Assembly (NCBI GenBank): GCA_943358385.1
Contig: CALRGX010000005.1
Span: forward strand, 2,886 to 66,885
DNA from: Parcubacteria group bacterium
Lineage (GTDB): Bacteria > Patescibacteriota > Minisyncoccia > Phycocordibacterales > UBA2100
DNA length: 64,000 bases
Direction of reading: 5' to 3'
Within the stretch, counting starts at the first letter, position 1, and every line of letters starts with the position of its first letter. The notes below the pieces were generated by a model. It was not told the DNA's origin, did not search any database, and saw only the letters and a program-made list of their open reading frames with translations. The position numbers and the translations under genes are program-made. This document shows, piece after piece, positions 1,173 to 37,827 of the stretch.

Positions 1173-1250
1173 GCAGCTTGCGTGTGGGTGACCGCGTTCA
1201 TTTCGTGGATACAGGAGCCGACTGTGTGTGCGCAGTGCTACGATTTAGCC

Positions 1251-2282
1251 ATGTCATCAATGCGCCGGCTAGGTGCGCTTTTTGTGGGGGCCTGTGCCGC
1301 CATATGTACTTTTCCAGCAGTCGCGATGGCGCACACGCGCTGGTTTGCCGAAGGGACGCTTCAGCCCTACACCACCATGGAGCCTACTAGTTTATATTTG
1401 CTCGCCTGGGCCGTCATCACTACAGTTATTGTGAGTGTCGGCATCTATTTGGAGAGAAATACTATTCTGCGATTAGAATGGATTAAGCCGCGACTTGCGC
1501 ATTCCTTTGATAGAGCGGCGGGCACTTTTTCAATGGTGGCGGGCGCGTTTTTTGTAGTGGCAGGCACACATGAGTATCTCTTTTCGTCCAACATGGAAAA
1601 TGCTCTTGGTGTGCCCTCGTACTTCATTATTGCGCAGGTGTTTATTGGCCTCGCATTTTTGGTCGGAGCGTATGCACGTGTTGCGGCGCTCGCCTTGATT
1701 GCATTGTGGGCGCTCTCGATTGCATGGTTTGGTTGGTTGCCCATGGTTGAAAATCTGTGGGTGGTTGGGACTGGTCTTTTCATCCTGATAATGGGTAACG
1801 ATTATTTCAGCGTCCTAAATGTGCGGCTGCTCAAGAAATACACGCAGCACTATCATGCGTATGCATTGCCGCTTTTGCGCGTGTGTACTGGCGCCACATT
1901 GTTGGTGCTCGGCTTTTCGGAAAAGATTCTTCATCCCGAGTTCGGCATCAACTTTCTTGCTCAATACCACTGGAATTTTATGCAGCTGCTCGGATTTGCC
2001 GGGTACAGTGACTACCTCTTCACGCTCTCGGCCGGCTCGGTGGAAGCATTGCTCGGTATTGTATTTATTCTTGGCATCATGACCCGACTGAATGCATTGG
2101 TGGTCGCTACTTTTTTCACGATACCGCTTTTCATCCTGGGACCTATCGAGCTTGCTGGGCACCTGCCACATTTCGCGGCGGTGGTCATGCTTCTCTTGTT
2201 TGGAAGTGGTGACAAATTCGTTTTGATTCCACGGGTGCACCGCATTGCGGCCCACACGCGCCCAGGGGCGCATAGACGGTAA
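1251..2282 (+). CDS. Polytopic membrane protein with signal peptide, function unknown
   Basis: The ORF frame is 1182..2282. The start is chosen at MSSMRRLGALFVGACAAICTFPAVAMA|HTRW (signal-like) and is followed by multiple hydrophobic helices. Confidence 0.55.
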   Translation: MSSMRRLGALFVGACAAICTFPAVAMAHTRWFAEGTLQPYTTMEPTSLYLLAWAVITTVIVSVGIYLERNTILRLEWIKPRLAHSFDRAAGTFSMVAGAFFVVAGTHEYLFSSNMENALGVPSYFIIAQVFIGLAFLVGAYARVAALALIALWALSIAWFGWLPMVENLWVVGTGLFILIMGNDYFSVLNVRLLKKYTQHYHAYALPLLRVCTGATLLVLGFSEKILHPEFGINFLAQYHWNFMQLLGFAGYSDYLFTLSAGSVEALLGIVFILGIMTRLNALVVATFFTIPLFILGPIELAGHLPHFAAVVMLLLFGSGDKFVLIPRVHRIAAHTRPGAHRR

Positions 2283-2489
2283 TGATGGGTCTCGGGTACC
2301 TGGCTCGTCAGAGCTCTACACAGGTGGACGAGGTGAAGGGGGTGCGTACAATAGCCACAACACTCGTTTTATAGGCGTGTGATTAATAGCGTTACAACGC
2401 ATACATATGAAAGCAATACTAGGAATCGTGATTTTGATCGTGCTCGCAGCGGGCGGCTGGTACCTCTACGACAAAAAGAGTGCAGAAAA

Positions 2490-2957
2490 ATGGCACAAGA
2501 CGATGCGGCCATGAAAGCCGAAATGATGGCAAATGATCCAGATGGGGACGGTGACGACCACATGATGGGCACATCGACCGACGACATGATGATGGGTACA
2601 TCCAGCATGGCAACCTCGAGCTCTGCAACATCAACAGGCATGATGGATGACAAAAAGACGGAAGAAGTGGCTTCAGCGCCAGGAGCACCAGTCTTCACCA
2701 TGACCGGCAAAAATTTCGAGTTTTCCACGAAGGAGATGAAAGTAAAAAAAGGAGATAAAGTAACGGTGATTTTCGAGAGTTCGAGTGGATTCCATGATTG
2801 GGTGGTTGATGAATTTAAAGCAGCAACCAAACAGGTGAACCCTGGAACCAAGACATCGGTAACGTTTGTCGCAGATAAAACCGGCACGTTTGAGTACTAC
2901 TGCTCGGTAGGCAAGCATCGCCAGAGCGGTATGGTAGGGAAGTTGATTGTTGAGTAA
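2490..2957 (+). CDS. Cupredoxin (type-1 copper) domain protein with Met-rich linker; probably frameshifted from an upstream TM anchor ORF (2407..2511)
   Basis: The C-terminal domain has FHDW...YYCSVGKHRQSGM, matching the His/Cys/His/Met T1Cu ligand pattern. A Met/Asp/Gly-rich segment (DHMMGTSTDDMMMGTSSM) precedes it. A 34-aa TM ORF (MKAILGIVILIVLAAGGWYLYDKK...) lies in the +1 frame and overlaps at an A5 run at 2486-2490. Confidence 0.6.
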   Translation: MAQDDAAMKAEMMANDPDGDGDDHMMGTSTDDMMMGTSSMATSSSATSTGMMDDKKTEEVASAPGAPVFTMTGKNFEFSTKEMKVKKGDKVTVIFESSSGFHDWVVDEFKAATKQVNPGTKTSVTFVADKTGTFEYYCSVGKHRQSGMVGKLIVE

Positions 2958-3048
2958 AGGAGAAAACCGTTTCGGGAAAAGACAGCCGCGCCCTATGGGC
3001 GCGGCTGTCGTGTTTGTAGCAAGGCCTGGGTAGCGGTACAGTCTGGGT

Positions 3049-4194
3049 ATGCAAGGCGTCATTCATACGCGGAAAGTCGTTAGTAGTGTATTTTTCGTCG
3101 CCATCGCCATTGGCGGGTTTTTGGTCCCCGCATCGAGTGGTGCCCAAGAACTCTTGCCTGAAGTGGAGCACATATGGAAAGCTCAGGCCGTGAGTGTCTC
3201 GAGTGCGACGACAACATTCGAGGCATTTGGTGTGGAGTCGCAGTCCCAAATCCTCGAAGCTCGTATTCTGGAAGGCGAACGCTCGGGGGAAGTGGTACAG
3301 TTTCGCAACGACTACATCCTCCTTAAATCTGGAGACCGATTCTATCTGCGCCATAGCGTGCAGCCAGGAGGAGAAGATAGTTTTGCGGTGTTCGACCGAG
3401 ATCGACATCTGGTCTTGGGGGTGCTGGCTCTTTTATTTGTTGCGGCGGTTATATTCCTCGGAGGAATACAGGGTGTGCGTGCGCTGCTATCACTCATCGC
3501 CAGTTTCCTCTTGATTATGTACGTACTGGTGCCGTCACTCCTTGCGGCATATCCGCCCGTTTTGGTAAGTGTGGTGATTGCAGCGGGCATTTTGGCGCTC
3601 GCCATATTTCTGACACATGGCATCAATCGGGGGTCAGTCGTGGCGTTTGTAGGCACAGTCACTGCGGTGTTGTGTACTGGTGCACTGGCGACACTCGTCT
3701 CGTACTTTGCGGGATTTACGGGATTGGGCCCGGACGAGGCAACCTACCTTAATTTGGCAACGGGTGGAACGCTGGATTTAGCGGGTCTCCTTCTGGCGGG
3801 GATTATCATCGGTATGCTTGGTGTGTTGGACGATATTGCCATCACCCAGGTAGCGGTGGTGCGTGAGCTCTACCATGCGACACCGGATATGAGCAGGCAC
3901 GAAGTTTATACGCGTGCTATGCGTGTCGGGAAAGAACATGCCGGGGCATTGGTGAATACCTTGGTATTGGCGTACAGCGGTGCGGCGCTCCCGCTCATTA
4001 TGCTCTTCGCGCTCTCTGAAGAGAGTATGCTTTTTTTCATCAATAGAGAGATTTTTGCCGTGGAAATAGTACGAGCCCTGGTCGGCTCTATCGGCCTCAT
4101 GGTAGCGGTCCCCGTCACGACCGCGCTTGCCGCGTGGTTTTTGCGAGGACACGCGCATGGCGTCGGGCCCGTGCACGGCCATCACCACGGATAG
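3049..4194 (+). CDS. YibE/F-family-like integral membrane protein with His-rich C-terminus
   Basis: An N-terminal signal/TM is followed by a soluble domain and then about 6 hydrophobic helices. The architecture and the motifs LLKSGDRFYL and GVLDDIAITQ are reminiscent of the YibE/F family. The tail is HGHAHGVGPVHGHHHG. Confidence 0.45.
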   Translation: MQGVIHTRKVVSSVFFVAIAIGGFLVPASSGAQELLPEVEHIWKAQAVSVSSATTTFEAFGVESQSQILEARILEGERSGEVVQFRNDYILLKSGDRFYLRHSVQPGGEDSFAVFDRDRHLVLGVLALLFVAAVIFLGGIQGVRALLSLIASFLLIMYVLVPSLLAAYPPVLVSVVIAAGILALAIFLTHGINRGSVVAFVGTVTAVLCTGALATLVSYFAGFTGLGPDEATYLNLATGGTLDLAGLLLAGIIIGMLGVLDDIAITQVAVVRELYHATPDMSRHEVYTRAMRVGKEHAGALVNTLVLAYSGAALPLIMLFALSEESMLFFINREIFAVEIVRALVGSIGLMVAVPVTTALAAWFLRGHAHGVGPVHGHHHG

Positions 4195-4243: not shown

Positions 4244-5131
4244 ATGCTGTCACTCGTACTTTCCCCTCTGCGCATCCTGATGACGGGGCTCACCGCGCTG
4301 GCCATTGCCGTGTCATCCCTGGCGTACATGAAAAATGTAGAGCGCGTCCCTGTTCTCGTGGAGGCACCGCCGGTCTACTTTCATTGCGCACAAGGGAGGT
4401 CCTTCATTTTCACACCGCATACCGGCTCGGCAACAATTGAGCTTTCTGACGGCAGAGTGATGGAATTATATGCAAAAGAGACCGACGCGGGGGTGCGATA
4501 TTTAGACAAAGACGAGACCGGCGAATTTACCGTGCATGGTGATAGTGCTGGATTTATTTCACATGGGCTAGAAGATTTTAGCGATTGTTCGCGGGAAGAT
4601 GTGCCGAGTGTAAACACGTGCGTGCTGTCGTTGAAAAAGGCAGTGACTGCGTATGCTCGCCCGAGTACCAATGCTGCCGTGTTTGGCACCATTGCGATGG
4701 ATGAAAAGTCTCCCGTTGTAGGGCGCACCACGACGGGCTGGATTGGTGTTGAACCAGGTGTTCCTCAGGCGCCGAATATTGGTCCTTTTCGGGCTCGTTG
4801 GATTGAGCTCACCCCTGATGTGGCACTGGAAGGAGCTACCTGTAGTGTCCTTCCTATCATGCCTGCCCTTGATACACAGGCGTGTTACGTGATGGTGCAC
4901 CAAGACACTGCCGTGTATGCCCAGCCAGTTCGCGCATCAGCCACGGTGGCGACATTGTACAGCGGTGCGTATGTGCGCGCCGTATCACGCGACACGCGAG
5001 ATGCTGACTTTCTGAAGGTTAACCTTACCGACGGATCTTCTGGCATTGGGCGCACCGGAAAAACAATTGGATGGGTGCATAGCGCCGATGTGGATGTGAA
5101 TGGCGCGTGCGCGGCAGAAGATTTCTACTAG
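4244..5131 (+). CDS. Secreted/membrane-anchored hypothetical protein
   Basis: There is an internal start at MLSLVLSPLRILMTGLTALAIAVSSLA (signal/anchor) within the ORF frame 4127..5131. No recognisable domain was found. Confidence 0.45.
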   Translation: MLSLVLSPLRILMTGLTALAIAVSSLAYMKNVERVPVLVEAPPVYFHCAQGRSFIFTPHTGSATIELSDGRVMELYAKETDAGVRYLDKDETGEFTVHGDSAGFISHGLEDFSDCSREDVPSVNTCVLSLKKAVTAYARPSTNAAVFGTIAMDEKSPVVGRTTTGWIGVEPGVPQAPNIGPFRARWIELTPDVALEGATCSVLPIMPALDTQACYVMVHQDTAVYAQPVRASATVATLYSGAYVRAVSRDTRDADFLKVNLTDGSSGIGRTGKTIGWVHSADVDVNGACAAEDFY

Positions 5132-5150
5132 ACATTCCTACCATCCGCGT

Positions 5151-5864
5151 ATGTCCACCACACCGTACTCCAAAGTTGCTGCATTGTGGCATCCGTTTTT
5201 AGTGTTGGGAGGTTTTGACCGTGGCTTGCGCCACCTCATAAAACGATTGCCATACTTGCCGCCGAACGATGCACCACTCAAAGTACTCGATATAGGTTGC
5301 GGGTCTGCGGTGATGAGTTTTGCACTCCTGAAGCGCTTTCCTCAGGCTGAAGTTTTGGCCACTGATATGGACCCCATTATGGTGCGTGAGGCGGTAAAGC
5401 ACCGCGACAAGCTGGGCATCAAGAGAACACAGTGCGCTTTTGCCTGCTCGGATGCCAACTATCCCCACATGGTGCAGTACGGTTGTACGGGGGCATATCA
5501 GGAGTTGCCGCATGAAGCATTTGACCTGGTGGTTGCGGGTGCGGTCTTGGAGCATGTCGATTTAGATCGTGCCATACAATCAGTGTTTGCCTTGTTGAAG
5601 CCAGGCGGCACGTTTCTCATCATTGCGATGCGCGAAGAAGCCTTTCTTTCCAAGGTGTATGAGCGTGTCTATCATTGCATCCCGCGATCTATCGAGACAC
5701 ATCGCGAAAGTCTCATGGCCGCAGGGTTTCAAAGTGTTTTGGTGGAACGAACGCGATTGAGCGACTTCAGTGCAAACCTCACTCGCGTAGCAATTATTGC
5801 GCGCAAGGCACCTCACGTCGCTTCGTCTGAGGACCTCGCGTATACTGTGCCTATTATTGCGTAG
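5151..5864 (+). CDS. Class I SAM-dependent methyltransferase
   Basis: VLDIGCGSAVMSF...ATDMDPIMV matches SAM-binding motifs I and II. The start is chosen at MSTTPYSK. Confidence 0.6.
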   Translation: MSTTPYSKVAALWHPFLVLGGFDRGLRHLIKRLPYLPPNDAPLKVLDIGCGSAVMSFALLKRFPQAEVLATDMDPIMVREAVKHRDKLGIKRTQCAFACSDANYPHMVQYGCTGAYQELPHEAFDLVVAGAVLEHVDLDRAIQSVFALLKPGGTFLIIAMREEAFLSKVYERVYHCIPRSIETHRESLMAAGFQSVLVERTRLSDFSANLTRVAIIARKAPHVASSEDLAYTVPIIA

Positions 5865-5878
5865 TACTCAATCTCTCT

Positions 5879-6421
5879 ATGGTAAAGATGCTTACTGGTT
5901 TCGTGGTGGCTGGGGCGGTTATTCTTGGCGGGTGGTGGTACTTTGGGTCAGATACGACGGCGCCCGGTGCAGAAACTGCTCCCACAGAAAACACCGGCAC
6001 AGCTCCCACTGAGTCTGTACAAGCTGGTACGTTCAGCGGATCGTTTGATGATTTGGCAGCACGCGGCGGCGACTGGAAGTGCACCTTTACGTCAAAGACC
6101 GAAATGGGTGATGCAGTAGGTACTGTGTATGTTTCAGGAAAAAATATCCGTGGTGATTTTTCAATGATCGCGCCGGTTATTGGGAAAGTAGACAGCTACA
6201 TGATTGCTGATAGTGAATTCACGTACTCGTGGTCTTCGATGCTGCCGCAGGGTTTTAAAGCGAAGCGTGCAGATGGGGGAGTGGCTGCAGAGACTGACAC
6301 AAAAACTGCTGACACTATGGTGAACCCTAAGATGGCGATGAATTACAACTGCGAGCCGCATACGGCAGATGCGGCGCTCTTCGTCGTGCCGAGCAACGTT
6401 ACCTTCAAAGATTTGAACTAA
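5879..6421 (+). CDS. Hypothetical exported protein (N-terminal TM anchor)
   Basis: MVKMLTGFVVAGAVILGGWWYFG serves as an anchor and the remainder is a soluble domain. A terminator follows. Confidence 0.5.
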   Translation: MVKMLTGFVVAGAVILGGWWYFGSDTTAPGAETAPTENTGTAPTESVQAGTFSGSFDDLAARGGDWKCTFTSKTEMGDAVGTVYVSGKNIRGDFSMIAPVIGKVDSYMIADSEFTYSWSSMLPQGFKAKRADGGVAAETDTKTADTMVNPKMAMNYNCEPHTADAALFVVPSNVTFKDLN

Positions 6422-6448
6422 CGCTTCACGTTCAAGCAGTACAGAGTG

Positions 6449-6478
6449 AGGCGCGGCAACCTTTGGTTGCCGCGCCCT
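6449..6478 (+). terminator. Rho-independent terminator
   Basis: GAGGCGCGGCAACC-ttt-GGTTGCCGCGCCCTC is a perfect hairpin 28 nt after the stop. Confidence 0.6.
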
Positions 6479-6492
6479 CTTGCTCCCATCAC

Positions 6493-6789
6493 CTACATAC
6501 TCGGTGGTTCGTATACGCACAAAAGCTGCAGCGTGTGAGGCGAAATGCACACATGCCAACGCATATCGCGCGAAAGGCGTCGTGGGAACTCAGGCGGCAC
6601 TACTGCCGAGCGGCCGTGCTCGCTCATCATGTACAATCCGCCTGGCACCATTTCAATCCGTGATGCTGGCGCACAGTCGCCGTTGTTGCAGCAACCACTT
6701 TCATACCACGACACAACGCTACCATCGGTATTCACATGATCGTGTGCCATGGTGGATGCGGTAGTGATAAGGAGTATGAACGTCATCAT
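6493..6789 (-). CDS. Small putative exported His/Cys/Met-rich protein (low confidence)
   Basis: The internal start MMTFILLITTASTMA|HDHVNTDG... gives a signal-like N-terminus and a mature peptide beginning with His. It has the motifs WYESGCCNNGDCAP and LYMMSEHG. No SD is present, and the longer listed ORF frame 6493..7056 would overlap the next gene. Confidence 0.3.
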   Translation of the reverse strand: MMTFILLITTASTMAHDHVNTDGSVVSWYESGCCNNGDCAPASRIEMVPGGLYMMSEHGRSAVVPPEFPRRLSRDMRWHVCISPHTLQLLCVYEPPSM

Positions 6790-6959
6790 GCATACAGATA
6801 CCGCATTGTGCGGATGTCTGAGTATCATGCGATGTATCCTCCGTTTGGTGCAGTCTTTTTGCACCATACGCCGATTTATCATATGTGCAAGATTGTGATA
6901 TTCTCGAAAAAGGCAGCTCGTTGGTACAGCTGACCTCCTCGAACCAAGGAGACAGTACG

Positions 6960-7370
6960 ATGAAGAAACTGCGCTACGCAGGGGCAGCATTGCTCCTCCT
7001 GACACTGACGGCACTGACGGCCACACCTGCTGCCGCAAGCTTCTGCGGCGGCTCAACTGCCTGGAAGATGCTCACGAACGTCGCCTATGTCCAGTATGCC
7101 GACCCGGCACTACAGCAGAGGCTCTCGTTCTTCGAACGCTGGCAGGTACGCCGCGATCTCGACCTGCTCGAGACCACAACGGTCGGCCAGGCGCAGATCG
7201 ATGCGCTCGATCGTCTGATCGCAACGGCCCGTGCAAAACTTGGCCGTGATGCTGCTCGTCCCTATGCCGGCGCTGCCTACGAGCTCATCGGCAAGGTCTA
7301 CCACATCATGTCGGAGCACAATGGTGACCTCACGCTCGCCGATCGTGCCGAGGGCAATGTGGCTGGTTAA
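6960..7370 (+). CDS. Secreted hypothetical protein
   Basis: AAGGAG-N8-ATG precedes the start. The signal peptide is MKKLRYAGAALLLLTLTALTATPAAA. A strong terminator follows. Confidence 0.6.
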   Translation: MKKLRYAGAALLLLTLTALTATPAAASFCGGSTAWKMLTNVAYVQYADPALQQRLSFFERWQVRRDLDLLETTTVGQAQIDALDRLIATARAKLGRDAARPYAGAAYELIGKVYHIMSEHNGDLTLADRAEGNVAG

Positions 7371-7394
7371 GCTACGGCATTTTGATGCCTTTTG

Positions 7395-7431
7395 AAACGC
7401 CGCCTCCCCTTGAGGCGGCGTTTTCTTTTTT
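7395..7431 (+). terminator. Rho-independent terminator
   Basis: AAACGCCGCCTC-ccctt-GAGGCGGCGTTT is followed by TCTTTTTT. Confidence 0.75.
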
Positions 7432-7787
7432 GCACTCTTTTGCTGAGAGGCGTATGCTCGTGCTATGGAACTCTCTCAAGTCTGCCCCGATGTATCTAGC
7501 TGGCGTCACGACCGCCACGAGGCATTCGAATTGGGTGGGGCTGTGGTACCAGGACTTTTCCGTGATGTGTATCGCTATCGAGAAGATAGTACCGATGAGG
7601 ACTCACTTTCATGCGCATTCTACACACTCCATGATAAGCGGGTGCTTTCCGTCTGGGGTGTAGTTGGTGGCGCCGATTGCTGTCGGTACCACCAGCTGGA
7701 AGAGGGCGCGGTTCTCCCTGGTGCACCGAACATGCACGTGGACGTGAGCGAGCATTCTTTGTGGATTAACGATAAGCAATTTGCTCT

Positions 7788-8507
7788 ATGATTCAACATT
7801 TTTCTATAACCGGAATGCATTGTGGTGCGTGTGTTAAAAAAGTCGAAGCGGCCGTAGGTGCGCTTGCAGGGGTGCGAGTGGTGCGGGTCGACCTTGCGTC
7901 GCAATCAATAGTACTCGAACACGACGCGCCACTTGAGCGCGCTGTAGTGTCACATGCTATAGCCGCTGCCGGGCCATACGTTCTTGGCGACGCCCAGAAC
8001 ATAGTAAAGACACCACCTGCATCCGGTGGGGTTATACGCAGGGTTATGCCGCTCCTTCTCATGCTTGTGTTGGTAACCCTCTTTGCCCTCTTAAAGCAAA
8101 TATTTTTTGCATCGCCGGCCACATTCCATGGGCTAATGCAGGATTGGATGGCCGGATTCTTCTTGCTATTTGGAGTGCTGAAGGTTATCAATCTGAAGAA
8201 ATTTGCCCTCATGTATCAGGGGTATGATGTCGCGGCAAAGCGTTTCCCGTGGTGGGGTTACCTGTACCCATTTCTGGAAGTGGGTCTGGGTCTACTCTTC
8301 CTGTTTGGCGCTGCGCTCGTTTTTGCGAATGTGGCAACAGTCGCGCTGATGGGTTTGGGCATGATTGGCATCTACAAAAAAATCCACTCCGAAGGAGAGG
8401 TGCAGTGCGCGTGTCTGGGAGGATTTTTCAATGTGCCAGTCACCTGGTTTACGTTTGCTGAAAATGGATTGATGGTGGTGATGGCTGTGTGGATGCTTTT
8501 GCAATAG
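7788..8507 (+). CDS. HMA (heavy-metal-associated) domain fused to MauE/DoxX-family redox-associated membrane protein
   Basis: The N-terminus ITGMHCGACVKKVEAAV is an HMA ferredoxin-like metal-binding motif. The C-terminal 4-TM domain with LYPFLEVGLGLLFLFG and QCACLGGFF is clearly homologous to the ORF at 35873..36517. Confidence 0.6.
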   Translation: MIQHFSITGMHCGACVKKVEAAVGALAGVRVVRVDLASQSIVLEHDAPLERAVVSHAIAAAGPYVLGDAQNIVKTPPASGGVIRRVMPLLLMLVLVTLFALLKQIFFASPATFHGLMQDWMAGFFLLFGVLKVINLKKFALMYQGYDVAAKRFPWWGYLYPFLEVGLGLLFLFGAALVFANVATVALMGLGMIGIYKKIHSEGEVQCACLGGFFNVPVTWFTFAENGLMVVMAVWMLLQ

Positions 8508-8531
8508 AGCGCACAATAAACGACATCAGTC

Positions 8532-9617
8532 ATGAATATCGATCGCATCATTGGGCACATCGACCTTGATGCGTTTTTTGCATCGGTGGAAGAGCGCGAC
8601 AAGCCATACCTGAAAGGTATGCCGATTGCCGTAGGGTCAGACCCTCTTGGCGGGAAAGGGCGTGGCGTGGTTTCGACCGCGAGCTATGCAGCGCGTACAT
8701 ATGGAATTAGAAGCGCGCTCCCCATACAGACTGCGTGGAAATTATCACAAGCTGCCAAAGCGCGCGGTGAGCAAGAGTGCATTTTCATCGTGCCGCACCA
8801 CGACAAATACGGCACTGCATCTGCTGAAGTCTTTGCGATTATCCGAGAGATTTTTCCTATCGTTGAACAGGTGGGTGTAGATGAAGGGTACGTTGACATG
8901 ACAGAACTAGGCAGCATATCTGCCGCCGAGAAAAAAGCAGCGCTGTTGCGTACGCGCGTACGCGAAGAGCTGGGCCTGGCACTCACGGTTGGGATTGGTC
9001 CCAATAAGCTGATTGCAAAGCTGGCCTCTGAAAAAGGCAAGCCGGACGGACTGTTTGTAGTACCGAGTGAAGAAGTAGACGAGCTGCTCATGCCGCTTTC
9101 TCTACAAGAACTGCCAGGCATTGGCAAGGTTACCGCTGCGCGCCTTACTACACGTGGGCTCAAGACGGTACGCGATGCGCGCAAGCTCAGCTGGCAAGAT
9201 TTGAGGAAACTGTTTGGAAGCCACGGTTTTTCTATGTACGAACGACTGCGTGGGATAGATGAGCGCGTGGTCGAGGTGGTTGGTGAGGCGCCCAAATCAA
9301 TAGGTAAGCACCACACTTTTTTTGAGGATGTTACCGACATACGAGAGGTAGAGGTGGTCCTTGCTACACAAGTGCAGAGCATCATGCGCTCGTTGAAGCG
9401 AGAAAGCTTCAGTGCGTTTAGGACGGTCGTTTTGACGGTTCGCTTTGATGACTTCACGACAGTGAGCCGTGCACTCACGCTTTCCACACCGCGCGCGGAC
9501 GCAAAAGAGTTAGAACTGAAAGCTTTGAAATTGCTCCTCCCATTTTTTGAAAAGAAGGAAAATCCGCATAAGAGGCCGGTTAGATTGATTGGCCTACGAA
9601 TTGAGAAGCTCTCATGA
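8532..9617 (+). CDS. dinB: DNA polymerase IV (Y-family)
   Basis: IDLDAFFASVEERD...IAVG...GIGPNKLIAKLAS matches ImpB/UmuC family motifs. Confidence 0.8.
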   Translation: MNIDRIIGHIDLDAFFASVEERDKPYLKGMPIAVGSDPLGGKGRGVVSTASYAARTYGIRSALPIQTAWKLSQAAKARGEQECIFIVPHHDKYGTASAEVFAIIREIFPIVEQVGVDEGYVDMTELGSISAAEKKAALLRTRVREELGLALTVGIGPNKLIAKLASEKGKPDGLFVVPSEEVDELLMPLSLQELPGIGKVTAARLTTRGLKTVRDARKLSWQDLRKLFGSHGFSMYERLRGIDERVVEVVGEAPKSIGKHHTFFEDVTDIREVEVVLATQVQSIMRSLKRESFSAFRTVVLTVRFDDFTTVSRALTLSTPRADAKELELKALKLLLPFFEKKENPHKRPVRLIGLRIEKLS

Positions 9618-9632
9618 TAGTATCCGTGCACT

Positions 9633-10295
9633 ATGAGACGACTCGTTGAAAGGAAAGGGCGGATGGGAGACATACTGCGGTGCCTCAAAGATATGTACGG
9701 TGAGCCAAAAACGGAACTGCACTACAAAAAACCCCACGAGCTTTTGTTCGCGGTCATGCTATCAGCACAGTGCACGGATGTACGAGTGAACATGGTAACG
9801 AAGACACTCTTTAAAAAATATGCAACCTTGGCCGATTACGCGGCTGCCTCGCAGTCTGACATGCGCACCGCAATCACTTCGATAAGCTACCCAAATAATA
9901 AGGCGCAACATATCCGTGAGACTGCACAGATACTTTTGCGCGACTTCAAAGGGAAGGTGCCAGCAGTAATGGAAGATCTACTGACGCTCAAAGGAGTGGC
10001 TCGCAAGACCGCCAACGTGGTGCGTGGTGAGCTCTATGATGTCTGGGACGGTATCGCGATAGACACGCACGTAAAGCGGTTTGTGAAAAAATTTGATTTG
10101 TCTGACGCGACCACTAGTGATGGTATGGAGAAAGACCTCATGCTTCTCAATGCGCCTCACCATTGGAAGTATGTAAACAATGGATTGGTGCTGTATGGCC
10201 GCTATGTGTGCAAAGCAATTAAGCATGATTGTGATGAGCATCCACTCACCCAGTTGTGGCCGCCAGCAGAGAAAAGGTGGCCGAAGGCGAGTTAG
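9633..10295 (+). CDS. HhH-GPD DNA glycosylase (endonuclease III-like), apparently lacking a complete FeS cluster motif
   Basis: LKGVARKTANVV...DTHVKR is the HhH-GPD signature. The C-terminus has only 2 Cys. Confidence 0.6.
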   Translation: MRRLVERKGRMGDILRCLKDMYGEPKTELHYKKPHELLFAVMLSAQCTDVRVNMVTKTLFKKYATLADYAAASQSDMRTAITSISYPNNKAQHIRETAQILLRDFKGKVPAVMEDLLTLKGVARKTANVVRGELYDVWDGIAIDTHVKRFVKKFDLSDATTSDGMEKDLMLLNAPHHWKYVNNGLVLYGRYVCKAIKHDCDEHPLTQLWPPAEKRWPKAS

Positions 10296-32960: not shown

Positions 32961-33009
32961 GGTCGTGCCTACTATACCACTCTCCCTGGGTAGGTGTTTA
33001 CGCTGAATA

Positions 33010-33038
33010 TTGACGTGGAACGTACTTGAAAGTATAGT
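33010..33038 (+). promoter_or_regulatory. Strong sigma70-like promoter driving ssrA
   Basis: TTGACG (33010-15), a 17-bp spacer, then TATAGT (33033-38). Confidence 0.6.
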
Positions 33039-33044
33039 CCAAAA

Positions 33045-33107: not shown

Positions 33108-33149
33108 AAAACACATCGCTCTGTTCTTTACAGAAGGTGTGCTTTTGCT

Positions 33150-35211: not shown

Positions 35212-35301
35212 GGAGGGTTCGCATAGTGGTCTAGTGCACGTCCCTGGAAAGGACGAGTCTGGGAAACCGGACCGAGAGTTCGAATCTCTCACCCTCCGCC
35301 A
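35212..35301 (+). tRNA. tRNA-Ser (anticodon GGA), CCA encoded
   Basis: The acceptor GGAGGGT/ACCCTCC is followed by GCCA. The anticodon loop is CTGGAAA, and the long variable arm is GTCTGGGAAACCGGAC. Confidence 0.85.
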
Positions 35302-35322
35302 ACACAATTTAGTCTCGGAGTC

Positions 35323-35357
35323 AACTCACTTGCCTGAGCAAGTGGTGCGACTCACAT
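35323..35357. repeat. Left copy of imperfect direct repeats flanking the AT-rich islet (AACTCACTTGCCT ... GCGACTCACAT), containing palindrome CACTTGC-ctga-GCAAGTG
   Basis: ACTCACTTGCCT and GCGACTCAC recur at 37653-37667 as GCGACTCACTTGCCT. ACTCACAT recurs at 37729-37736. Confidence 0.5.
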
Positions 35358-35371
35358 ACATAAATTGCAAC

Positions 35372-35402
35372 AAAAAAACACGATAATCTCGTGTATTTTT
35401 TG
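35372..35402. terminator. Bidirectional terminator (tRNA-Ser on + and the island operon on -)
   Basis: AAAAAAACACGA-taatc-TCGTGTATTTTTTT. Confidence 0.65.
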
Positions 35403-35417
35403 TTGCAAGAGTAACTC

Positions 35418-35837
35418 TCAATAAGACTTTAGCCACTCATTCATCATTTTAATTTCAACCTCTTGAGCTTTTATTATATTCTCTGCAAAAGTCCTAATTT
35501 CAGGATTTACAGTTTTGTCTTGTAGTAACAATTTGGCCATGTCTACAGCACCTTGATGATGAGGTATCATGCCAGCAATAAATTCTTTTTCTAGAGCTTT
35601 ACCTGTTTTACCTTTCATCATCCCGACCATGTCTGTCATGGTCATATCCATCATACTGTTACCAGTATTCATCATCATTGAACCATCTGGCATTTGATGC
35701 ATATTCTGCATTGTTTTCTGTGCACCAGTTAGATTGTTTATTCGCTCTTTATCTTTCTGTACGATATCTCCGAAGTGAAATACCCATGTAGAGATGAGTG
35801 CTATTGCTAATACGATTGTAGAAATTTTGTAATTCAT
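35418..35837 (-). CDS. DUF305-family protein with Met-rich segment (copper-associated four-helix-bundle family)
   Basis: Signal peptide, the Met-rich run MQNMHQMPDGSMMMNTGNSMMDMTMTDMVGMM, and the DUF305 motif GMIPHHQGAVDMA. Confidence 0.65.
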   Translation of the reverse strand: MNYKISTIVLAIALISTWVFHFGDIVQKDKERINNLTGAQKTMQNMHQMPDGSMMMNTGNSMMDMTMTDMVGMMKGKTGKALEKEFIAGMIPHHQGAVDMAKLLLQDKTVNPEIRTFAENIIKAQEVEIKMMNEWLKSY

Positions 35838-35872
35838 AAATCTGTTTATTAATTAATAATACTTTGGGGACA

Positions 35873-36517
35873 TTACATTGCCATATGCCCCATACTTAAA
35901 GTTGTGATCACCATATAGAGAGCCATAAGTGCCATAAATAGATTCTCGAAAAGAGTTACCTTTGTCATTGGTACAGAGAAAACTGTTCCTAAGCATGCAC
36001 AAGGTATCTCATCTTTGTTTTGAAGTGCTTTCCAGACCCCTATAGTACCTATAGACATAATAATAAAGGTAAACACGTCTCTGTATATTCCACCAATGAC
36101 AAAGAAGTACAGTACTCCAAGCCCTATTTCAATAAATGGATACAGAAGTGCGTATGTGCGAGACTTCTTTGCCAAGATATCATACGTCATGTAAGCGTCT
36201 GCAAAAGCACTCAAATTGGGTAGTTTAAATAATCCAAAAACAAGAAAGAAATAGGACATCATGTACATCATTCCTGTCATAAAGCTATAATCTTGTTTGA
36301 GATACATAGAGACAATAGTCAAAATTGTAATGACTCCGATCATAGCTATTAATGGTAATAGTTTTTGGAAAGTTGATTGATGTGGAAGATTCAAGACTTT
36401 TATTGATTGTTCGGTTTTGTGGTGTTCACAAAAGTAATGAGGACTACCATTTGTGTTCTCATAATAGGTGCCAGCCATACTACACTTCTCACATTTGTTG
36501 TATTTTATTGCATGCAT
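35873..36517 (-). CDS. MauE/DoxX-family redox-associated membrane protein with N-terminal zinc-ribbon-like domain
   Basis: The N-terminus CEKC...FCEHH is followed by a 4-TM domain with LYPFIEIGLGVLYFFV and IPCACLGTVFSVPMTKVTLFEN. It is a paralogue of the C-domain of 7788..8507. Confidence 0.6.
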   Translation of the reverse strand: MHAIKYNKCEKCSMAGTYYENTNGSPHYFCEHHKTEQSIKVLNLPHQSTFQKLLPLIAMIGVITILTIVSMYLKQDYSFMTGMMYMMSYFFLVFGLFKLPNLSAFADAYMTYDILAKKSRTYALLYPFIEIGLGVLYFFVIGGIYRDVFTFIIMSIGTIGVWKALQNKDEIPCACLGTVFSVPMTKVTLFENLFMALMALYMVITTLSMGHMAM

Positions 36518-36522
36518 ACAAT

Positions 36523-36888
36523 TTAATGTTGAACGCTTTCACTTCCATGATGATCTTCACCAAGTAGTGTGTTATCCATAACATAATGAGAAAACAACAT
36601 AAAAAGTATTGCTAAAATTACCACAACTGCAAGATTTCTCTTTTCTATTTTGAATCTGTCTTTCAAGAAAAATGTTACATAGGTGATAATCATTCCAAGG
36701 CCAAGAAGTATTCCAGCGTATGACGGATTATCAAGATAATGCTGTATACCACCTGACAAAAATCCAGTTGCAAACGAAAGTCCTGTGATTATAAGAAAAT
36801 AATTTAGGTTGATTTTTTGCCCATGTTCTTTTGCTTCTTTAATATTTCCTATAATAGTGAAGATTAGACCTATACCAATTAGAACCAC
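36523..36888 (-). CDS. Small integral membrane protein, His-rich C-terminus; start may lie upstream (non-ATG)
   Basis: It has 3-4 hydrophobic helices and a C-terminus EDHHGSESVQH. The in-frame hydrophobic sequence continues upstream to 36993 without an ATG. Confidence 0.45.
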   Translation of the reverse strand: MVLIGIGLIFTIIGNIKEAKEHGQKINLNYFLIITGLSFATGFLSGGIQHYLDNPSYAGILLGLGMIITYVTFFLKDRFKIEKRNLAVVVILAILFMLFSHYVMDNTLLGEDHHGSESVQH

Positions 36889-37008
36889 ATATCTAGTAAC
36901 TCCATTTTGGAGTGTTCCGATATGAACTACTGACCCTGCGATAAGGGCAACTCCTAAATATTTGCAATATAAGTAAAAAATGCATAATGTGATTTATTTA
37001 TATCCATA

Positions 37009-37281
37009 CTATTTCCTCTTTAGCTTATAGACTTTAATAATCTCCTCTTGCATTTCCTTGATTCGACTTTTATTTGTGTCTTTTGTAAGACAGTGGGCAA
37101 GGTGGCTCTGTAGCATCTCATCTTCAAGGGAAGAGATGGCACTTTTTATAGCACTTGTTTGAGTAATGATATCAATACAGTATTTATCTGCTTGAATCAT
37201 CTTTTCAACTCCCTCCAGTTGTCCCATTATGCGTTTAATGCGACTAACTATTTTTTTGTTATCTTTGTGTACTCCGTGCAT
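37009..37281 (-). CDS. csoR: CsoR/RcnR-family metal-sensing transcriptional repressor (copper-sensing CsoR-like)
   Basis: VSRIKRIMGQLEGVEKMIQADKYCIDIITQTSAIKSAISSLEDEMLQSHLAHC carries the DUF156 pattern with conserved Cys...His...Cys ligand positions. Confidence 0.75.
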   Translation of the reverse strand: MHGVHKDNKKIVSRIKRIMGQLEGVEKMIQADKYCIDIITQTSAIKSAISSLEDEMLQSHLAHCLTKDTNKSRIKEMQEEIIKVYKLKRK

Positions 37282-37283
37282 AT

Positions 37284-37367
37284 TTATTTACAGCAATTAG
37301 AACCACAATTTGAACAAGCACACTTCTCACATTTACATGTGATACAAGAGCATTTTGTATTTTTCAT
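37284..37367 (-). CDS. 27-aa Cys-rich peptide (MKNTKCSCITCKCEKCACSNCGSNCCK), candidate metallothionein/Cu-binding peptide; first gene of csoR operon
   Basis: I translated the minus strand by hand. It gives 9 Cys in 27 aa, in CxC and CC motifs. The stop TAA lies 2 nt before the csoR ATG. The ORF is below the size cutoff of the ORF track. Confidence 0.5.
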   Translation of the reverse strand: MKNTKCSCITCKCEKCACSNCGSNCCK

Positions 37368-37421
37368 AATAATAGAGATATTGTAGTGGGTTATGGTAAT
37401 GGACTAGAATATCTTGTATAT

Positions 37422-37450
37422 ATTATATACCCTATGGGGGTATATTGCAA
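37422..37450 (-). promoter_or_regulatory. Promoter of the Cys-peptide/csoR operon with CsoR-like operator in the spacer
   Basis: On the minus strand the promoter reads TTGCAA - 17 bp - TATAAT. The spacer contains the GC-rich pseudo-palindrome ATACCCTATGGGGGTAT (37427-37443), which resembles known CsoR operators (TACCC...GGGGGTA type). Confidence 0.55.
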
Positions 37451-37652
37451 CTAGTCTATAAGCGTTAATTCTTTATCTTTATACACGATCTTGCTCCGCA
37501 GATTTGCTAATAGCTCTCGCTTCTCTGTGACCGCACCCTCTTTCAGAATGTATTTTGCATAATTTCGTATATCAGTATCAGGTGCTTATTTCTCTAGGTG
37601 TCTCATTTGTCTCATTTTCATCTAAAACCCTTTGTTTTATTACTGGGAGATA

Positions 37653-37667
37653 GCGACTCACTTGCCT
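37653..37667. repeat. Right copy of direct repeat (GCGACTCACTTGCCT) bounding the AT-rich islet
   Basis: It matches the left-flank segments at 35323-35335 and 35347-35355. Confidence 0.45.
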
Positions 37668-37827
37668 CAATGAGACACTCTAAAAAGTGCTATAATACAC
37701 TTACAAGGCCTCAAGTCGTGGGTACTTAACTCACATGGCCCGCAAAAATAAAGAGACAGAAGCGAAAGCTTCTGGCGATTATATTTTTGTAGGAAGGGTG
37801 AAAGATTCGAAGGCCGGAGGCGGGGGT

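What the first reader, a model, noticed from the sequence alone, without database searches (positions are those of the whole stretch)
7788..8507. Two paralogous MauE/DoxX-family membrane proteins, each fused to a different N-terminal metal-binding domain
The C-terminal 4-TM domains are clearly homologous. LYPFLEVGLGLLFLFG...QCACLGGFFNVPVTWFTFAEN at 7788..8507 aligns with LYPFIEIGLGVLYFFV...IPCACLGTVFSVPMTKVTLFEN at 35873..36517, and the intramembrane CxC is conserved. One carries an HMA domain (GMHCGAC). The other carries a zinc-ribbon-like CxxC...CxHH module and sits in the CsoR operon. MauE/DoxX proteins are poorly characterised redox-associated membrane proteins. Metal-binding N-domains in copper contexts suggest a thiol-based membrane metal reductase or relay. 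The 7.8 kb copy neighbours a Met-rich cupredoxin, a YibE/F-like protein with a His-rich tail, and a small exported His/Cys protein.
Basis: partly seen in the sequence, partly recalled or inferred. Interest (0 to 1): 0.5.

Follow-up and report, generated by a model that had tools for sequence, protein, structure and literature searches.

The report
Copper-linked MauE-family membrane proteins, two copies
The window encodes two related small membrane proteins, each with a cysteine-rich metal-binding head, that belong to a very large unstudied branch of the MauE family. This branch sits in copper-stress operons across many bacterial phyla and most likely hands toxic copper across the membrane.

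Summary
ORF A (7788..8507, +) is HMA + MauE. ORF B (35873..36517, -) is a conserved C-x2-C...C-x-H-H module + MauE. They share 35% identity (E 1e-35), and the CxC is invariant in 138/138 diverse relatives.

Corrections: both have five TM helices, not four. The CxC lies in a loop, not inside the membrane. B is not a paralogue: it rides on a 2.4-kb low-GC csoR cassette next to tRNA-Ser, 88-91% identical in DNA to a 33%-GC Patescibacteria contig. The cupredoxin and YibE/F genes lie 3.6-5.4 kb from A, behind a terminator.

Both belong to a subfamily of at least 6,876 clusters that sits beside metal-sensing regulators (CsoR, HMA-AraC, ArsR, MerR/CueR) and copper proteins that work outside the cytoplasm (DUF305/CopM, multicopper oxidase, Cus, MbnP).

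A 2026 preprint shows that canonical MauE is a DsbB-like thiol oxidase with a CXC active site. This subfamily keeps the CXC, Lys and Glu. It replaces two Arg found in all 117 canonical sequences examined with Asp/Glu, and about six aliphatic (mainly Leu) residues with Met.

My best reading, at moderate confidence, is a Cu(I) thiol/thioether relay across the membrane. The main rival is a copper-induced thiol:quinone oxidoreductase. This is a new variant of a known kind.

The parts
7788..8507 (+). ORF A, 239 aa: HMA domain + extra TM helix + four-helix MauE core. This is the native copy.
   Evidence: Pfam HMA 1.3e-11 and MauE 3.3e-14. AF2 mean pLDDT 88.8. GC3 0.54, like the host genes. Collinear with Paceibacterota contig L014 at 76% identity.
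7788..7988 (+). HMA domain of A (residues 1-67), motif GMHCGAC (C12, C15)
8022..8105 (+). Extra N-terminal TM helix of A (residues 79-106), outside the Pfam MauE model
   Evidence: Helix 79-106 in the model. The Pfam model starts at residue 119. Canonical MauE starts directly at the next helix.
8406..8414 (+). C207-A-C209 of A, in the loop between TM4 and TM5
   Evidence: Invariant. Residues 201-219 are non-helical. Homologous to the CXC active site shown by mutagenesis in canonical MauE.
7465..7791 (+). orf108: a 108-aa Cys/His-rich ORF whose stop overlaps A's start by 4 nt (ATGA). Probably co-translated with A.
   Evidence: and the sequence. 58% identical and gap-free, with the same 4-nt overlap, in L014. 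No Pfam hit. No other homologue in the fetched loci.
7394..7424 (+). Strong intrinsic-terminator-like hairpin that separates A's operon from the upstream genes
   Evidence: 13-pair stem with 8 GC pairs, followed by a T-run.
35873..36517 (-). ORF B, 214 aa: C-x2-C...C-x-H-H module + extra TM helix + MauE core + Met/His tail. This is the acquired copy.
   Evidence: Pfam MauE 3.5e-14. AF2 mean pLDDT 80.1. 728 homologues. GC3 0.36.
36419..36493 (-). N-terminal Cys/His module of B (C9, C12, H27, C30, H32, H33)
   Evidence: Conserved as KCExCSM...HY[YF]CxHHK in alignment A1. Small beta-hairpins, pLDDT about 70. No Pfam or NCBIfam family. Absent from some family members that keep the same operon.
35993..36001 (-). 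C173-A-C175 of B
   Evidence: Invariant. Lies in a low-confidence loop, residues 167-184.
35876..35899 (-). C-terminal tail LSMGHMAM of B
   Evidence: An MG[HN]MxM tail recurs in family B. Predicted to lie on the side of the membrane opposite the CxC loop.
37009..37281 (-). csoR, the first gene of the cassette
   Evidence: PF02583 3.1e-25. Ligand set C35/H60/C64.
37424..37444 (.). CsoR operator ATATACCCTATGGGGGTATAT (TAC-N9-GTA)
   Evidence: The TACCC-N5-6-GGGTA box occurs only once in the 64-kb window. The same box lies upstream of csoR in L008-L013. Matches 17 of 20 specified positions of the published type-2 consensus (PMC3902906).
36523..36888 (-). 121-aa small membrane protein with a His-containing tail, between csoR and B
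   Evidence: 57% identical to the ORF in the same position in L010. Lacks about 44 N-terminal residues relative to that ORF. No family above threshold.
35418..35837 (-). DUF305 / CopM-like Met-rich exported protein, the last gene of the cassette
   Evidence: PF03713 3.1e-20. NCBIfam CopM 74 bits, below its cutoff of 90. Adjacent to the MauE gene in all family-B loci.
35365..35408 (.). 13-nt perfect inverted repeat after the DUF305 stop codon. Possible terminator of the cassette.
   Evidence: Inverted repeat I6. Sequence.
35302..37720 (.). Low-GC islet carrying the csoR cassette. It starts right after tRNA-Ser(GGA) at 35212..35301.
   Evidence: GC 0.30-0.40 against about 0.52. tRNA. 88.2% and 91.4% nucleotide identity to L008/L009. 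A 12-nt direct repeat, ACTCACTTGCCT, lies at 35324 and 37656, which is weak evidence.

Best explanation
Both genes encode members of one large, uncharacterised branch of the MauE family that is linked to metal regulons.

Architecture (shown): a swappable N-terminal Cys-bearing module, one extra TM helix, then the four-helix MauE core with its CxC loop.
- A has an HMA domain with CxxC.
- B has a C-x2-C...C-x-H-H module.
- Other members have a monothiol glutaredoxin, HMA+GNAT, or no module at all.

Five helices force the N-module and the CxC loop onto the same face of the membrane (geometry). Charge bias, the nature of the fused domains and the absence of signal peptides indicate that this face is the cytoplasm (inferred).

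Expression is controlled by sensors of cytoplasmic Cu(I) or other thiophilic metals. This is shown by conserved gene order and, for B, by a literature-matching CsoR operator.

Proposed mechanism (inferred):
1. Cu(I) captured by the N-module is handed by ligand exchange to the CxC.
2. It then passes the acidic residues D113 and E191, and a ladder of conserved methionines on TM2, TM4 and TM5, toward the outer face.
3. Acceptors outside the cytoplasm take it up. These are B's own Met/His tail and the co-operonic CopM-like DUF305 protein. In Bacteroidota the acceptor is a multicopper oxidase or a Cus pump.

In short, this is an accessory device that moves copper out of the cytoplasm, built on a thiol-oxidase scaffold. 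Transfer could be pulled by the outside sink or coupled to protons through the conserved carboxylates.

Copy A is the native gene, co-translated with a 108-aa Cys/His ORF. Copy B arrived recently on a mobile csoR cassette.
For: 1. Family size and architecture.
- 6,876 representative clusters at E<=1e-3.
- HMA+MauE in most of the top hits.
- N-module variants: B-type, monothiol Grx, HMA+GNAT, none.

2. Regulatory context.
- csoR-(TM)-MauE-DUF305 in all nine family-B places read, plus the window.
- A CsoR box upstream of csoR in L008-L013, and in the window only once. It matches the published consensus.
- For HMA-MauE: 33 of 73 upstream genes are AraC regulators, and 32 of the 33 ORFs of that size start with the HMA motif IKNMVCxRC.
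- CsoR upstream in L029 and L077. ArsR upstream in Parcubacteria.
- CueR or MerR beside the gene on plasmids.

3. Partner genes work outside the cytoplasm on copper.
- Multicopper oxidase, OEP/RND/CusB, DUF3347/HMBD, MbnP with a MauG-like peroxidase, DUF305.
- CopM binds Cu(I) with KD about 3e-16 in the periplasm and outside the cell (PMC4335983).

4. Subfamily-specific chemistry, compared with 117 canonical mau-cluster MauE proteins.
- Canonical R44 and R124 (117/117 each) align with D113 and E191 (138/138 each).
- Canonical L14, L18, L86, L128, L/A131 and V/L135 align with M83, M87, M154, M195, M198 and M202 (112-138 of 138).
- Core Met content is 6.3% against 1.8%.
- By helical periodicity these Met residues share faces with K98 and E191.

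5. Sidedness.
- K+R alternates 2.5-2.9 / 0-0.15 / 2.8-3.4 / 0-0.4 / 2.1 / 0.15 along the chain.
- A GNAT fold or a Grx domain with glutathione-type motifs lies before TM1.
- There are no signal peptides.
- Met/His-rich tails follow TM5.

6. The N-module is dispensable in relatives that keep the same operon. This resembles the accessory metal-binding domains of metal transporters.

7. No P-type ATPase or RND pump is encoded in the islet or anywhere in the window.
Against: - Nothing here is experimental.
- The only functional data for the family show a redox enzyme: canonical MauE replaces DsbB and needs its CXC.
- The Lys and Glu that the preprint places at a docked quinone (K98, E130) are invariant here too, so the ancestral chemistry may be retained.
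- Glutaredoxin fusions and some redoxin, DsbA or DsbD neighbours fit a redox role.
- A five-helix protein has no obvious energy source for exporting a cation against the membrane potential.
- The preprint predicts the CXC to be periplasmic in its two proteins. That conflicts with my charge-based topology, so sidedness is unresolved.
- I could not obtain model coordinates, so I have not shown that the Met and acidic residues line one continuous path.
- Copy A has no recognisable regulator or CsoR box in this genome, so its link to copper rests on family context only.
- A few contexts contain methyltransferases or CDF/ArsR genes, so the metal may not always be copper.
Confidence: 0.45

Rival explanations
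1. Copper-induced thiol:quinone oxidoreductase. The membrane domain keeps the DsbB-like chemistry of canonical MauE, with electrons passing from the CxC to a quinone. The fused CxxC, monothiol or Cys/His module is its dedicated redox partner or substrate, as in VKOR-thioredoxin fusions. Under copper stress it would oxidise, or keep correctly paired, thiols that Cu(I) would otherwise attack. This is the kind of job the Scs and Dsb systems do.
For: - Canonical MauE complements dsbB, its CXC is essential, and 8.2% of MauE entries are fused to thioredoxin-superfamily domains.
- K98, E130 and the CxC are invariant here and map onto the canonical Lys, Glu and CXC.
- Grx-MauE fusions are common on plasmids.
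- DsbA, DsbB, DsbD, redoxin and DCC1-like genes occur in some of the same islands.
- Copper-induced thiol oxidoreductase systems (Scs) are established (papers listed).
Against: - The two Arg-to-acidic reversals and the roughly six changes from aliphatic (mainly Leu) residues to Met are unexplained by unchanged redox chemistry.
- The residue after the CXC, Phe in 99 of 117 canonical sequences and proposed to bind quinone, is Leu here.
- HMA and Cys/His modules are metal binders, not typical redox carriers.
- The Grx domains are monothiol.
- The N-module is dispensable.
- The most constant partner, DUF305, has no Cys in the window's copy.
- If the CxC faces the cytoplasm, there is no periplasmic thiol substrate for it.
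- Patescibacteria are generally held to lack quinone biosynthesis (my own knowledge, not tested here).
Confidence: 0.3
2. Membrane-anchored copper buffer, chaperone or sensor that does not translocate metal. The N-module and the CxC bind Cu(I) at the inner face of the membrane. They either sequester it or pass it sideways to a true exporter (a P-type ATPase or a Cus pump) encoded nearby or elsewhere.
For: - HMA-MauE sits inside a Cus-type RND operon in Kordia.
- It sits beside P-type ATPases in some islands.
- The HMA domain resembles CopZ-like chaperones.
- The protein is small and has no energy-coupling module.
Against: - Buffering does not explain conserved Met and acidic residues spread through the transmembrane helices, or the outward Met/His tails.
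- Many cassettes, including the window's, contain no exporter.
- The tight pairing with an exported DUF305 protein suggests communication across the membrane.
Confidence: 0.13
3. Mer-like inward relay. An outside binding protein (DUF305, MbnP) passes a thiophilic metal through the membrane domain to the cytoplasmic CxC and HMA module, for supply or for cytoplasmic detoxification.
For: - It is analogous to MerP-MerT-NmerA hand-off (my own knowledge).
- Some loci pair the gene with MbnP and a MauG-like peroxidase, a pair that I recall is linked to copper acquisition.
- Methyltransferase neighbours occur in a few loci.
Against: - CsoR, CueR and similar regulators switch genes on when cytoplasmic metal is high, when import would be harmful.
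- No MerA or other cytoplasmic detoxifying enzyme recurs in the neighbourhoods.
- The NCBIfam MerTP model matches only the HMA part, at 22 bits against a cutoff of 180.
Confidence: 0.06

Closest known systems
Canonical MauE (methylamine utilisation protein E; PF07291), proposed DsbB-like disulfide-forming protein (bioRxiv 10.64898/2026.03.05.709764)
   Same: - Pfam family membership.
- A four-helix core with a long amphipathic loop.
- A CXC in the loop before the last core helix.
- An invariant Lys on core helix 1 and Glu on core helix 2.
- The same loop charge pattern.
   Different: - The extra helix is at the N-terminus instead of the C-terminus.
- There is an N-terminal metal- or thiol-binding module.
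- CAC-L-G replaces CGC-F-R.
- Two canonical Arg (117/117 each) are replaced by Asp and Glu.
- About six aliphatic (mainly Leu) positions are replaced by Met.
- No mau genes or MauD lie nearby. The genes sit in metal regulons instead.
MerT/MerP and MerTP fusions (mercury transport)
   Same: - A small membrane protein with a Cys pair, combined with an HMA domain.
- Metal moves by thiol ligand exchange without ATP.
- Encoded in metal-regulated operons (my own knowledge; the HMA similarity is).
   Different: - No sequence relationship in the membrane part.
- The MerTP model scores 22 bits against a cutoff of 180, and only on the HMA part.
- No MerA partner.
- Copper genes, not mercury genes, lie nearby.
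- The likely direction is outward.
P1B-type copper ATPase CopA with N-terminal HMA domains and a CPC motif, plus CopZ, under CsoR
   Same: - A CsoR-controlled response to cytoplasmic Cu(I).
- An N-terminal HMA module that is accessory to a membrane domain carrying a Cys-x-Cys-type site plus Met and acidic ligands.
   Different: - No ATPase domains, and only five helices.
- An unrelated fold.
- No demonstrated transport.
Copper chaperone for SOD1 (CCS): HMA domain plus a C-terminal CxC motif
   Different: CCS is soluble and eukaryotic. It has no membrane domain and no homology outside the HMA domain.
VKOR-thioredoxin and DsbB/DsbA systems; Scs copper-stress oxidoreductases
   Same: - A four-helix membrane redox scaffold fused or paired with a CxxC domain.
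- Induction by copper, in the case of Scs (titles).
   Different: - No Pfam match to DsbB or VKOR.
- The fused modules here are mostly metal binders or monothiol Grx domains.
- The predicted side of the membrane is the cytoplasm.
CopM (DUF305) of Synechocystis
   Same: The window's DUF305 neighbour matches the CopM model over residues 66-136 and is Met/His-rich, with an N-terminal hydrophobic anchor. CopM is a periplasmic and extracellular Cu(I) binder.
   Different: - The score of 74 bits is below NCBIfam's cutoff of 90.
- In Synechocystis, CopM is encoded with a two-component system, not with CsoR or a MauE-family gene.

Membership tests
MauE (PF07291) | Match to the Pfam model above the gathering score | tested here: met
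   A 53.7 bits and B 53.6 bits against a cutoff of 27. Canonical P. denitrificans MauE scores 101.6 bits.
MauE (PF07291) | CXC motif in the loop before the last core helix (the active site by mutagenesis in the preprint) | tested here: met
   C207/C209 in A and C173/C175 in B. 138/138 in representatives. Aligns with C106/C108 of P. denitrificans MauE.
MauE (PF07291) | Conserved Lys on core helix 1 and Glu on core helix 2 (proposed quinone site) | tested here: met
   K98 and E130 are 138/138. They align with K29 and E62, which are 117/117 in the canonical set.
MauE (PF07291) | Conserved Phe after the CXC | tested here: not met
   Leu in 129/138 (CACLG). The canonical set has Phe in 99/117. The preprint reports a conserved Phe-Gly.
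MauE (PF07291) | Ability to form disulfides or replace DsbB, with a quinone as acceptor | not testable with these tools
   Needs dsbB complementation and quinone-reduction assays.
MauE (PF07291) | Association with mau genes (MauA, MauB, MauD) | tested here: not met
   None found among the genes examined around either copy in the window, or in the roughly 100 related loci. The preprint notes that only about 10% of species with MauE have MauA, so this feature is not strictly defining.
HMA (PF00403) | Pfam match, MxCxxC motif and a ferredoxin-like fold | tested here: met
CsoR regulon (for copy B) | CsoR-family repressor with the Cu(I) ligand set Cys-His-Cys | tested here: met
   PF02583 at 88.8 bits. 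C35, H60 and C64 present. The assignment of this triad to copper sensing is from my own knowledge.
CsoR regulon (for copy B) | G-tract pseudopalindromic operator (TAC-N9-GTA) upstream of the operon | tested here: met
   ATATACCCTATGGGGGTATAT at 37424-37444, the only such box in the window. It recurs upstream of csoR in L008-L013. The consensus ATATACCCCTNAGGGGTATAT is given in PMC3902906.
CsoR regulon (for copy B) | Copper-dependent derepression | not testable with these tools
   Needs EMSA with and without Cu(I), or expression data.
MerT / MerTP mercury transporters | Match to the MerTP or MerT models, and a Cys pair in the first TM helix | tested here: not met
   The NCBIfam MerTP_fusion model scores 22 bits against a cutoff of 180, and only on the HMA part. 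There is no Cys in TM1.
P1B-type ATPase | E1-E2 ATPase and hydrolase domains | tested here: not met
   Only HMA and MauE are found. ATPase models match only the HMA part, far below their cutoffs.
Zinc ribbon (N-module of B) | Two Cys knuckles on beta-hairpins, recognised by a family model | tested here: inconclusive
   The conserved pattern is C-x2-C-x17-C-x-H-H. Hairpins at residues 18-29 with pLDDT about 70. No Pfam or NCBIfam match.
CopM / DUF305 (neighbour of B) | Match to the family models | tested here: inconclusive
   PF03713 at 73.2 bits against 27, which is met. NCBIfam CopM at 74 bits against a cutoff of 90, which is not met.

The most novel reading that the evidence does not exclude
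The five-helix, Met- and acid-substituted branch of the MauE family is a new and very widespread class of small, ATP-independent Cu(I) exporters. It would have evolved from a thiol-oxidase scaffold. In genome-reduced Patescibacteria, the mobile three-gene set csoR + MauE-type protein + CopM-like protein would then be a self-contained cassette that senses, exports and captures copper. A corollary is that the CXC loop of the whole MauE family may face the cytoplasm, as the charge bias indicates for both branches. That would require the DsbB-like model for canonical MauE to be revisited.
Probability: 0.3. Interest if true: 0.8.

Novelty: new variant of a known kind. Interest (0 to 1): 0.6.

Why it matters
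Copper efflux from the bacterial cytoplasm is currently attributed almost entirely to P1B-type ATPases.

**What is new.** This is a large family: at least 6,876 clusters at 50% identity, and at least 563 places in species-level genomes. It sits directly under copper sensors in Bacteroidota, Patescibacteria, Planctomycetota, Proteobacteria and Cyanobacteria, including cultured organisms such as Riemerella, Flavobacterium, Kordia, Dinoroseobacter and Sinorhizobium. I found no paper that discusses it.

**If it moves or relays Cu(I).** It would be a missing component of copper homeostasis. It would also be a clear case of a redox scaffold being converted into a metal-handling one by a few diagnostic substitutions.

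**If it is instead a copper-induced thiol oxidase.** It would extend the newly proposed MauE disulfide pathway into metal stress.

**Testability.** Either outcome can be tested directly with a handful of point mutants.

**A further issue raised.** The charge-based topology of MauE proteins disagrees with the published prediction. That disagreement bears on how the whole family works.

Tried and rejected
1. **'Inverted topology relative to canonical MauE'.** I held this view after reading the preprint. I dropped it when 117 canonical sequences showed the same loop charge alternation as this subfamily. What remains is a conflict with the preprint's TOPCONS prediction, not an inversion.

2. **Mercury (Mer-like) reading.** No MerA recurs in any neighbourhood, and the MerTP model matches weakly and only on the HMA part.

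3. **In-genome duplication of A to give B.** Rejected on GC3 (0.36 against 0.54) and on 88-91% DNA identity of the islet to a 33%-GC contig.

4. **Attachment sites for the islet.**
- The only candidate is a 12-nt direct repeat at both edges. About 0.24 such pairs are expected by chance (my estimate), so this is weak.
- An inverted 17-nt copy of the tRNA-Ser 3' end at 37795-37811 does not fit the usual direct-repeat pattern.
- There is no integrase in the islet. Large serine recombinases lie a few kb from related cassettes in L008 and L011.

5. **Literature searches.** Searches for MauE with HMA, copper, CsoR or DUF305, for the NCBI product name, and for the Riemerella operon found nothing relevant. 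The 'Alvarez et al.' reductase paper cited by the preprint could not be located. The preprint's supplementary sequences are not held.

6. **PDB sequence search.** The His-rich C-terminal domain of P0269 gave no significant match.

7. **orf108.** It has no Pfam family and no homologue outside L014 among the fetched loci.

8. **Model geometry.** I could not measure distances in the AF2 models because coordinates are not exposed.
Full report
**What is in the window**

ORF A (7788..8507, +, 239 aa) matches Pfam HMA (residues 5-49) and MauE (residues 119-238). ORF B (35873..36517, -, 214 aa) matches MauE (residues 84-203), and its N-terminus has no known family. The two align at 35% identity over 158 residues, E 1e-35.

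AlphaFold2 models built on family alignments are confident: mean pLDDT 88.8 for A and 80.1 for B. Both show the same plan:
- a small N-terminal domain;
- a linker;
- one long helix;
- the four-helix core covered by the Pfam model;
- the CxC in a non-helical loop between the fourth and fifth helices.

**The two copies have different histories**

Copy A is native.
- Its GC3 (0.54) matches the other host genes.
- Window 5100-10295 is collinear, gene for gene, with a Paceibacterota contig (L014). The shared genes are a methyltransferase, two small exported proteins, a small Cys/His protein, orf108, A, dinB and nth, at 58-85% amino-acid identity.
- A's start codon overlaps the stop of a conserved 108-aa Cys/His-rich ORF by 4 nt (ATGA). 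A strong terminator lies upstream at 7394-7424.
- The Met-rich cupredoxin (2379..2957), the YibE/F protein with a His tail (3049..4194) and a DoxX-like protein (1182..2282) are real. They lie 3.6-6.6 kb away and are not in A's operon.

Copy B is acquired.
- It lies in a 2.4-kb islet of GC 0.30-0.40, against 0.52 for the window. The islet starts immediately after tRNA-Ser(GGA).
- The islet genes have GC3 of 0.22-0.37.
- Its DNA is 88-91% identical to the csoR-MauE-DUF305 cassette of a 33%-GC Patescibacteria contig.

B is therefore a recent xenologue, not a paralogue.

**The csoR cassette**

All four islet genes are on the minus strand:
- csoR (37009..37281), with the C35/H60/C64 ligand set;
- a 121-aa membrane protein with a His-containing tail;
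- B;
- a Met-rich DUF305 protein that matches the CopM model, at 74 bits against a cutoff of 90.

Upstream of csoR lies ATATACCCTATGGGGGTATAT (37424-37444). It is the only TACCC-N5-6-GGGTA box in the 64 kb. It matches 17 of 20 specified positions of the published type-2 CsoR consensus and has the TAC-N9-GTA core.

The same box precedes csoR in L008-L013, six family-B loci. The order csoR-(small TM)-MauE-DUF305 holds in all nine family-B places read. These come from lineages 50-86% identical to B, and include members that lack the N-terminal Cys/His module entirely.

CopM is a periplasmic and partly extracellular protein that binds Cu(I) with KD about 3e-16 and lowers cellular copper (PMC4335983).

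**The wider family**

HMA-MauE fusions are abundant.
- There are 617 word-index hits, most with both domains.
- A profile of both families finds 6,876 representative clusters at E<=1e-3 among 1.84 billion proteins.

Immediate neighbours in 73 loci:

| Position | Families found |
|---|---|
| Upstream | AraC-type regulator in 33; of the 33 upstream ORFs of that size, 32 start with the HMA motif IKNMVCxRC. Also CsoR, multicopper oxidase, HMBD, DUF305, YHS |
| Downstream | Multicopper oxidase (for example Riemerella, Flavobacterium), OEP/RND components, DUF3347, MbnP, redoxin |

Second neighbours add DUF3347, HMBD, CusB-type adaptors, MauG-like peroxidases and P-type ATPases. In Kordia the gene sits inside a Cus-type RND operon. 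In Parcubacteria an ArsR regulator lies 20 bp upstream.

On plasmids of Roseobacter-group bacteria, Sinorhizobium, Paracoccus, Pseudoalteromonas and Picosynechococcus, the same membrane domain carries an N-terminal monothiol glutaredoxin. It sits beside cueR, MerR-type or csoR regulators, again next to DUF305. Other members insert a GNAT fold between HMA and the first helix.

The N-terminal module is therefore swappable and, in some members, absent.

**What is known about MauE**

A March 2026 preprint (10.64898/2026.03.05.709764) reports the following:
- Two four-helix MauE proteins replace DsbB in E. coli.
- The CXC is essential.
- Ubiquinone docks near a conserved Lys and Glu.
- 8.2% of MauE entries are fused to thioredoxin-superfamily domains.
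- TOPCONS places the CXC in the periplasm.

It does not mention copper or HMA. I found no other paper on these fusions.

**Comparison with canonical MauE**

I located the P. denitrificans mau cluster (L102) and gathered 117 canonical relatives.

Shared features: the Lys (K29 = K98), the Glu (E62 = E130), the CXC, and the overall charge pattern of the loops.

Features specific to the metal-linked branch:

| Feature | Canonical set | Metal-linked branch |
|---|---|---|
| Position of the extra helix | C-terminus | N-terminus |
| Residues around the CXC | CGC-F-R | CAC-L-G |
| D113 position | Arg, 117/117 | Asp, 138/138 |
| E191 position | Arg, 117/117 | Glu, 138/138 |
| M83, M87, M154, M195, M198, M202 positions | Leu or another aliphatic residue | Met in 112-138 of 138 |
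| Met content of the core | 1.8% | 6.3% |

By helical periodicity, M83-M87-F91-F94-K98 share one face of TM2, and E191-M195-M198-M202 share one face of TM5.

**Sidedness**

With five helices, the N-module, the long amphipathic loop and the CxC loop must all lie on one side of the membrane. Four lines of evidence point to the cytoplasm:
- K+R counts alternate cleanly along the chain: high in the N-flank, the long loop and the CxC loop, and close to zero in the others.
- There are no signal peptides.
- The fused GNAT and glutaredoxin domains are of cytoplasmic type.
- The tails after TM5 are Met/His-rich.

The canonical set shows the same alternation: 0.01 / 3.5 / 0.3 / 4.4 / 0.5 / 2.3. So I do not claim that the core is inverted. 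Instead, the charge-based topology of both branches disagrees with the preprint's periplasmic prediction. This needs experimental mapping.

**Interpretation**

The conserved regulators sense cytoplasmic thiophilic metal, mostly Cu(I). The conserved partners act on copper outside the cytoplasm. The branch-specific substitutions replace cation-repelling Arg with carboxylates and aliphatic (mainly Leu) residues with thioethers, which are typical Cu(I) ligands.

Together these make a Cys-to-Cys-to-Met relay of Cu(I) from the N-module, across the membrane, to outside acceptors the best-supported mechanism. I put it at about 0.45.

The main rival, at about 0.30, is that the ancestral thiol:quinone chemistry is retained and serves copper-stress thiol maintenance. 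In its favour are the invariant Lys, Glu and CXC, the glutaredoxin fusions and occasional Dsb or redoxin neighbours. A non-translocating buffer or chaperone role, and an inward Mer-like relay, are less likely.

For copy A in this genome, no regulator or CsoR box is visible. Its link to copper is therefore inferred from its family.

**Verdict**

The fusions are catalogued in databases but functionally undescribed, and they differ from canonical MauE by a coherent set of changes. I rate this a new variant of a known kind, of moderate-to-high interest.

Noticed in passing
window 37780-37970 (+): A GC-rich stretch just outside the low-GC islet has nested perfect inverted repeats (13 nt at 37849-61/37943-55; 12 nt at 37866-77/37882-93). 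It folds to -90.4 kcal/mol, z = -6.0 against 200 shuffles. It has no Rfam match at E<=1. It also holds an inverted 17-nt copy of the tRNA-Ser 3' end (37795-37811). This may be an undescribed structured RNA or a recombination scar.
   Followed up: partly
window 33006-33345 (+): The tmRNA gene is of the permuted (two-piece) type: Rfam alpha_tmRNA 122.9 bits and tmRNA_permuted 91.9 bits, and ARAGORN flags it as permuted. Judged by its best protein matches, the genome is a Paceibacterota (CPR) genome.
   Followed up: no
window 1182-4194 (+): A second possible copper cluster: a DoxX-like membrane protein (1182..2282), a Met-rich cupredoxin (2379..2957; PF13473/PF00127) and a YibE/F protein with the His-rich tail RGHAHGVGPVHGHHHG (3049..4194).
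   Followed up: partly
window 7465-7791 (+): orf108 is a conserved 108-aa protein with a CC pair and several His residues. It has no known family and is translationally coupled to the HMA-MauE gene. Among the fetched loci it is found only in the closest relative (L014).
   Followed up: partly
window 36523-36888 (-): The 121-aa membrane protein between csoR and B lacks about 44 N-terminal residues that its homologue in L010 has (165 aa, 57% identity). The gene is absent from the otherwise 88-91% identical cassette in L008/L009. It is a variable and possibly truncated accessory gene.
   Followed up: partly
L020-L093 (Bacteroidota loci), genes about 50-100 bp upstream of HMA-MauE: A family of AraC-type regulators of about 186 aa carries an N-terminal HMA-type motif, (I/V)(K/R)NMVCxRC, in 32 of 33 ORFs of that size. 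These are apparently metal-sensing AraC regulators that control copper operons in Bacteroidota. I found no description of them.
   Followed up: partly
L102 (P. denitrificans mau cluster) and 116 relatives: Canonical MauE proteins have a strong positive-inside charge pattern that places the CXC loop on the cytoplasmic side. Mean K+R is 3.5 and 4.4 in the two long loops and 2.3 in the C-tail, against 0.01-0.5 in the other segments. This is at odds with the periplasmic placement predicted in the 2026 preprint.
   Followed up: partly
L008 1-5996 and L011 11034-12621: Related csoR-MauE-DUF305 cassettes have large serine recombinases a few kb away. In L008 a larger copper island also lies alongside (DsbB, two DsbA genes, a second DUF305, a P-type ATPase). 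This suggests the cassette travels on mobile elements among Patescibacteria.
   Followed up: no
P0269 residues about 245-517: One HMA-MauE member carries a C-terminal domain of about 270 aa after TM5 that is His-rich and appears from its sequence to be beta-rich. It has no Pfam family and no PDB sequence relative. It may be a metal-binding domain that lies outside the cytoplasm.
   Followed up: partly
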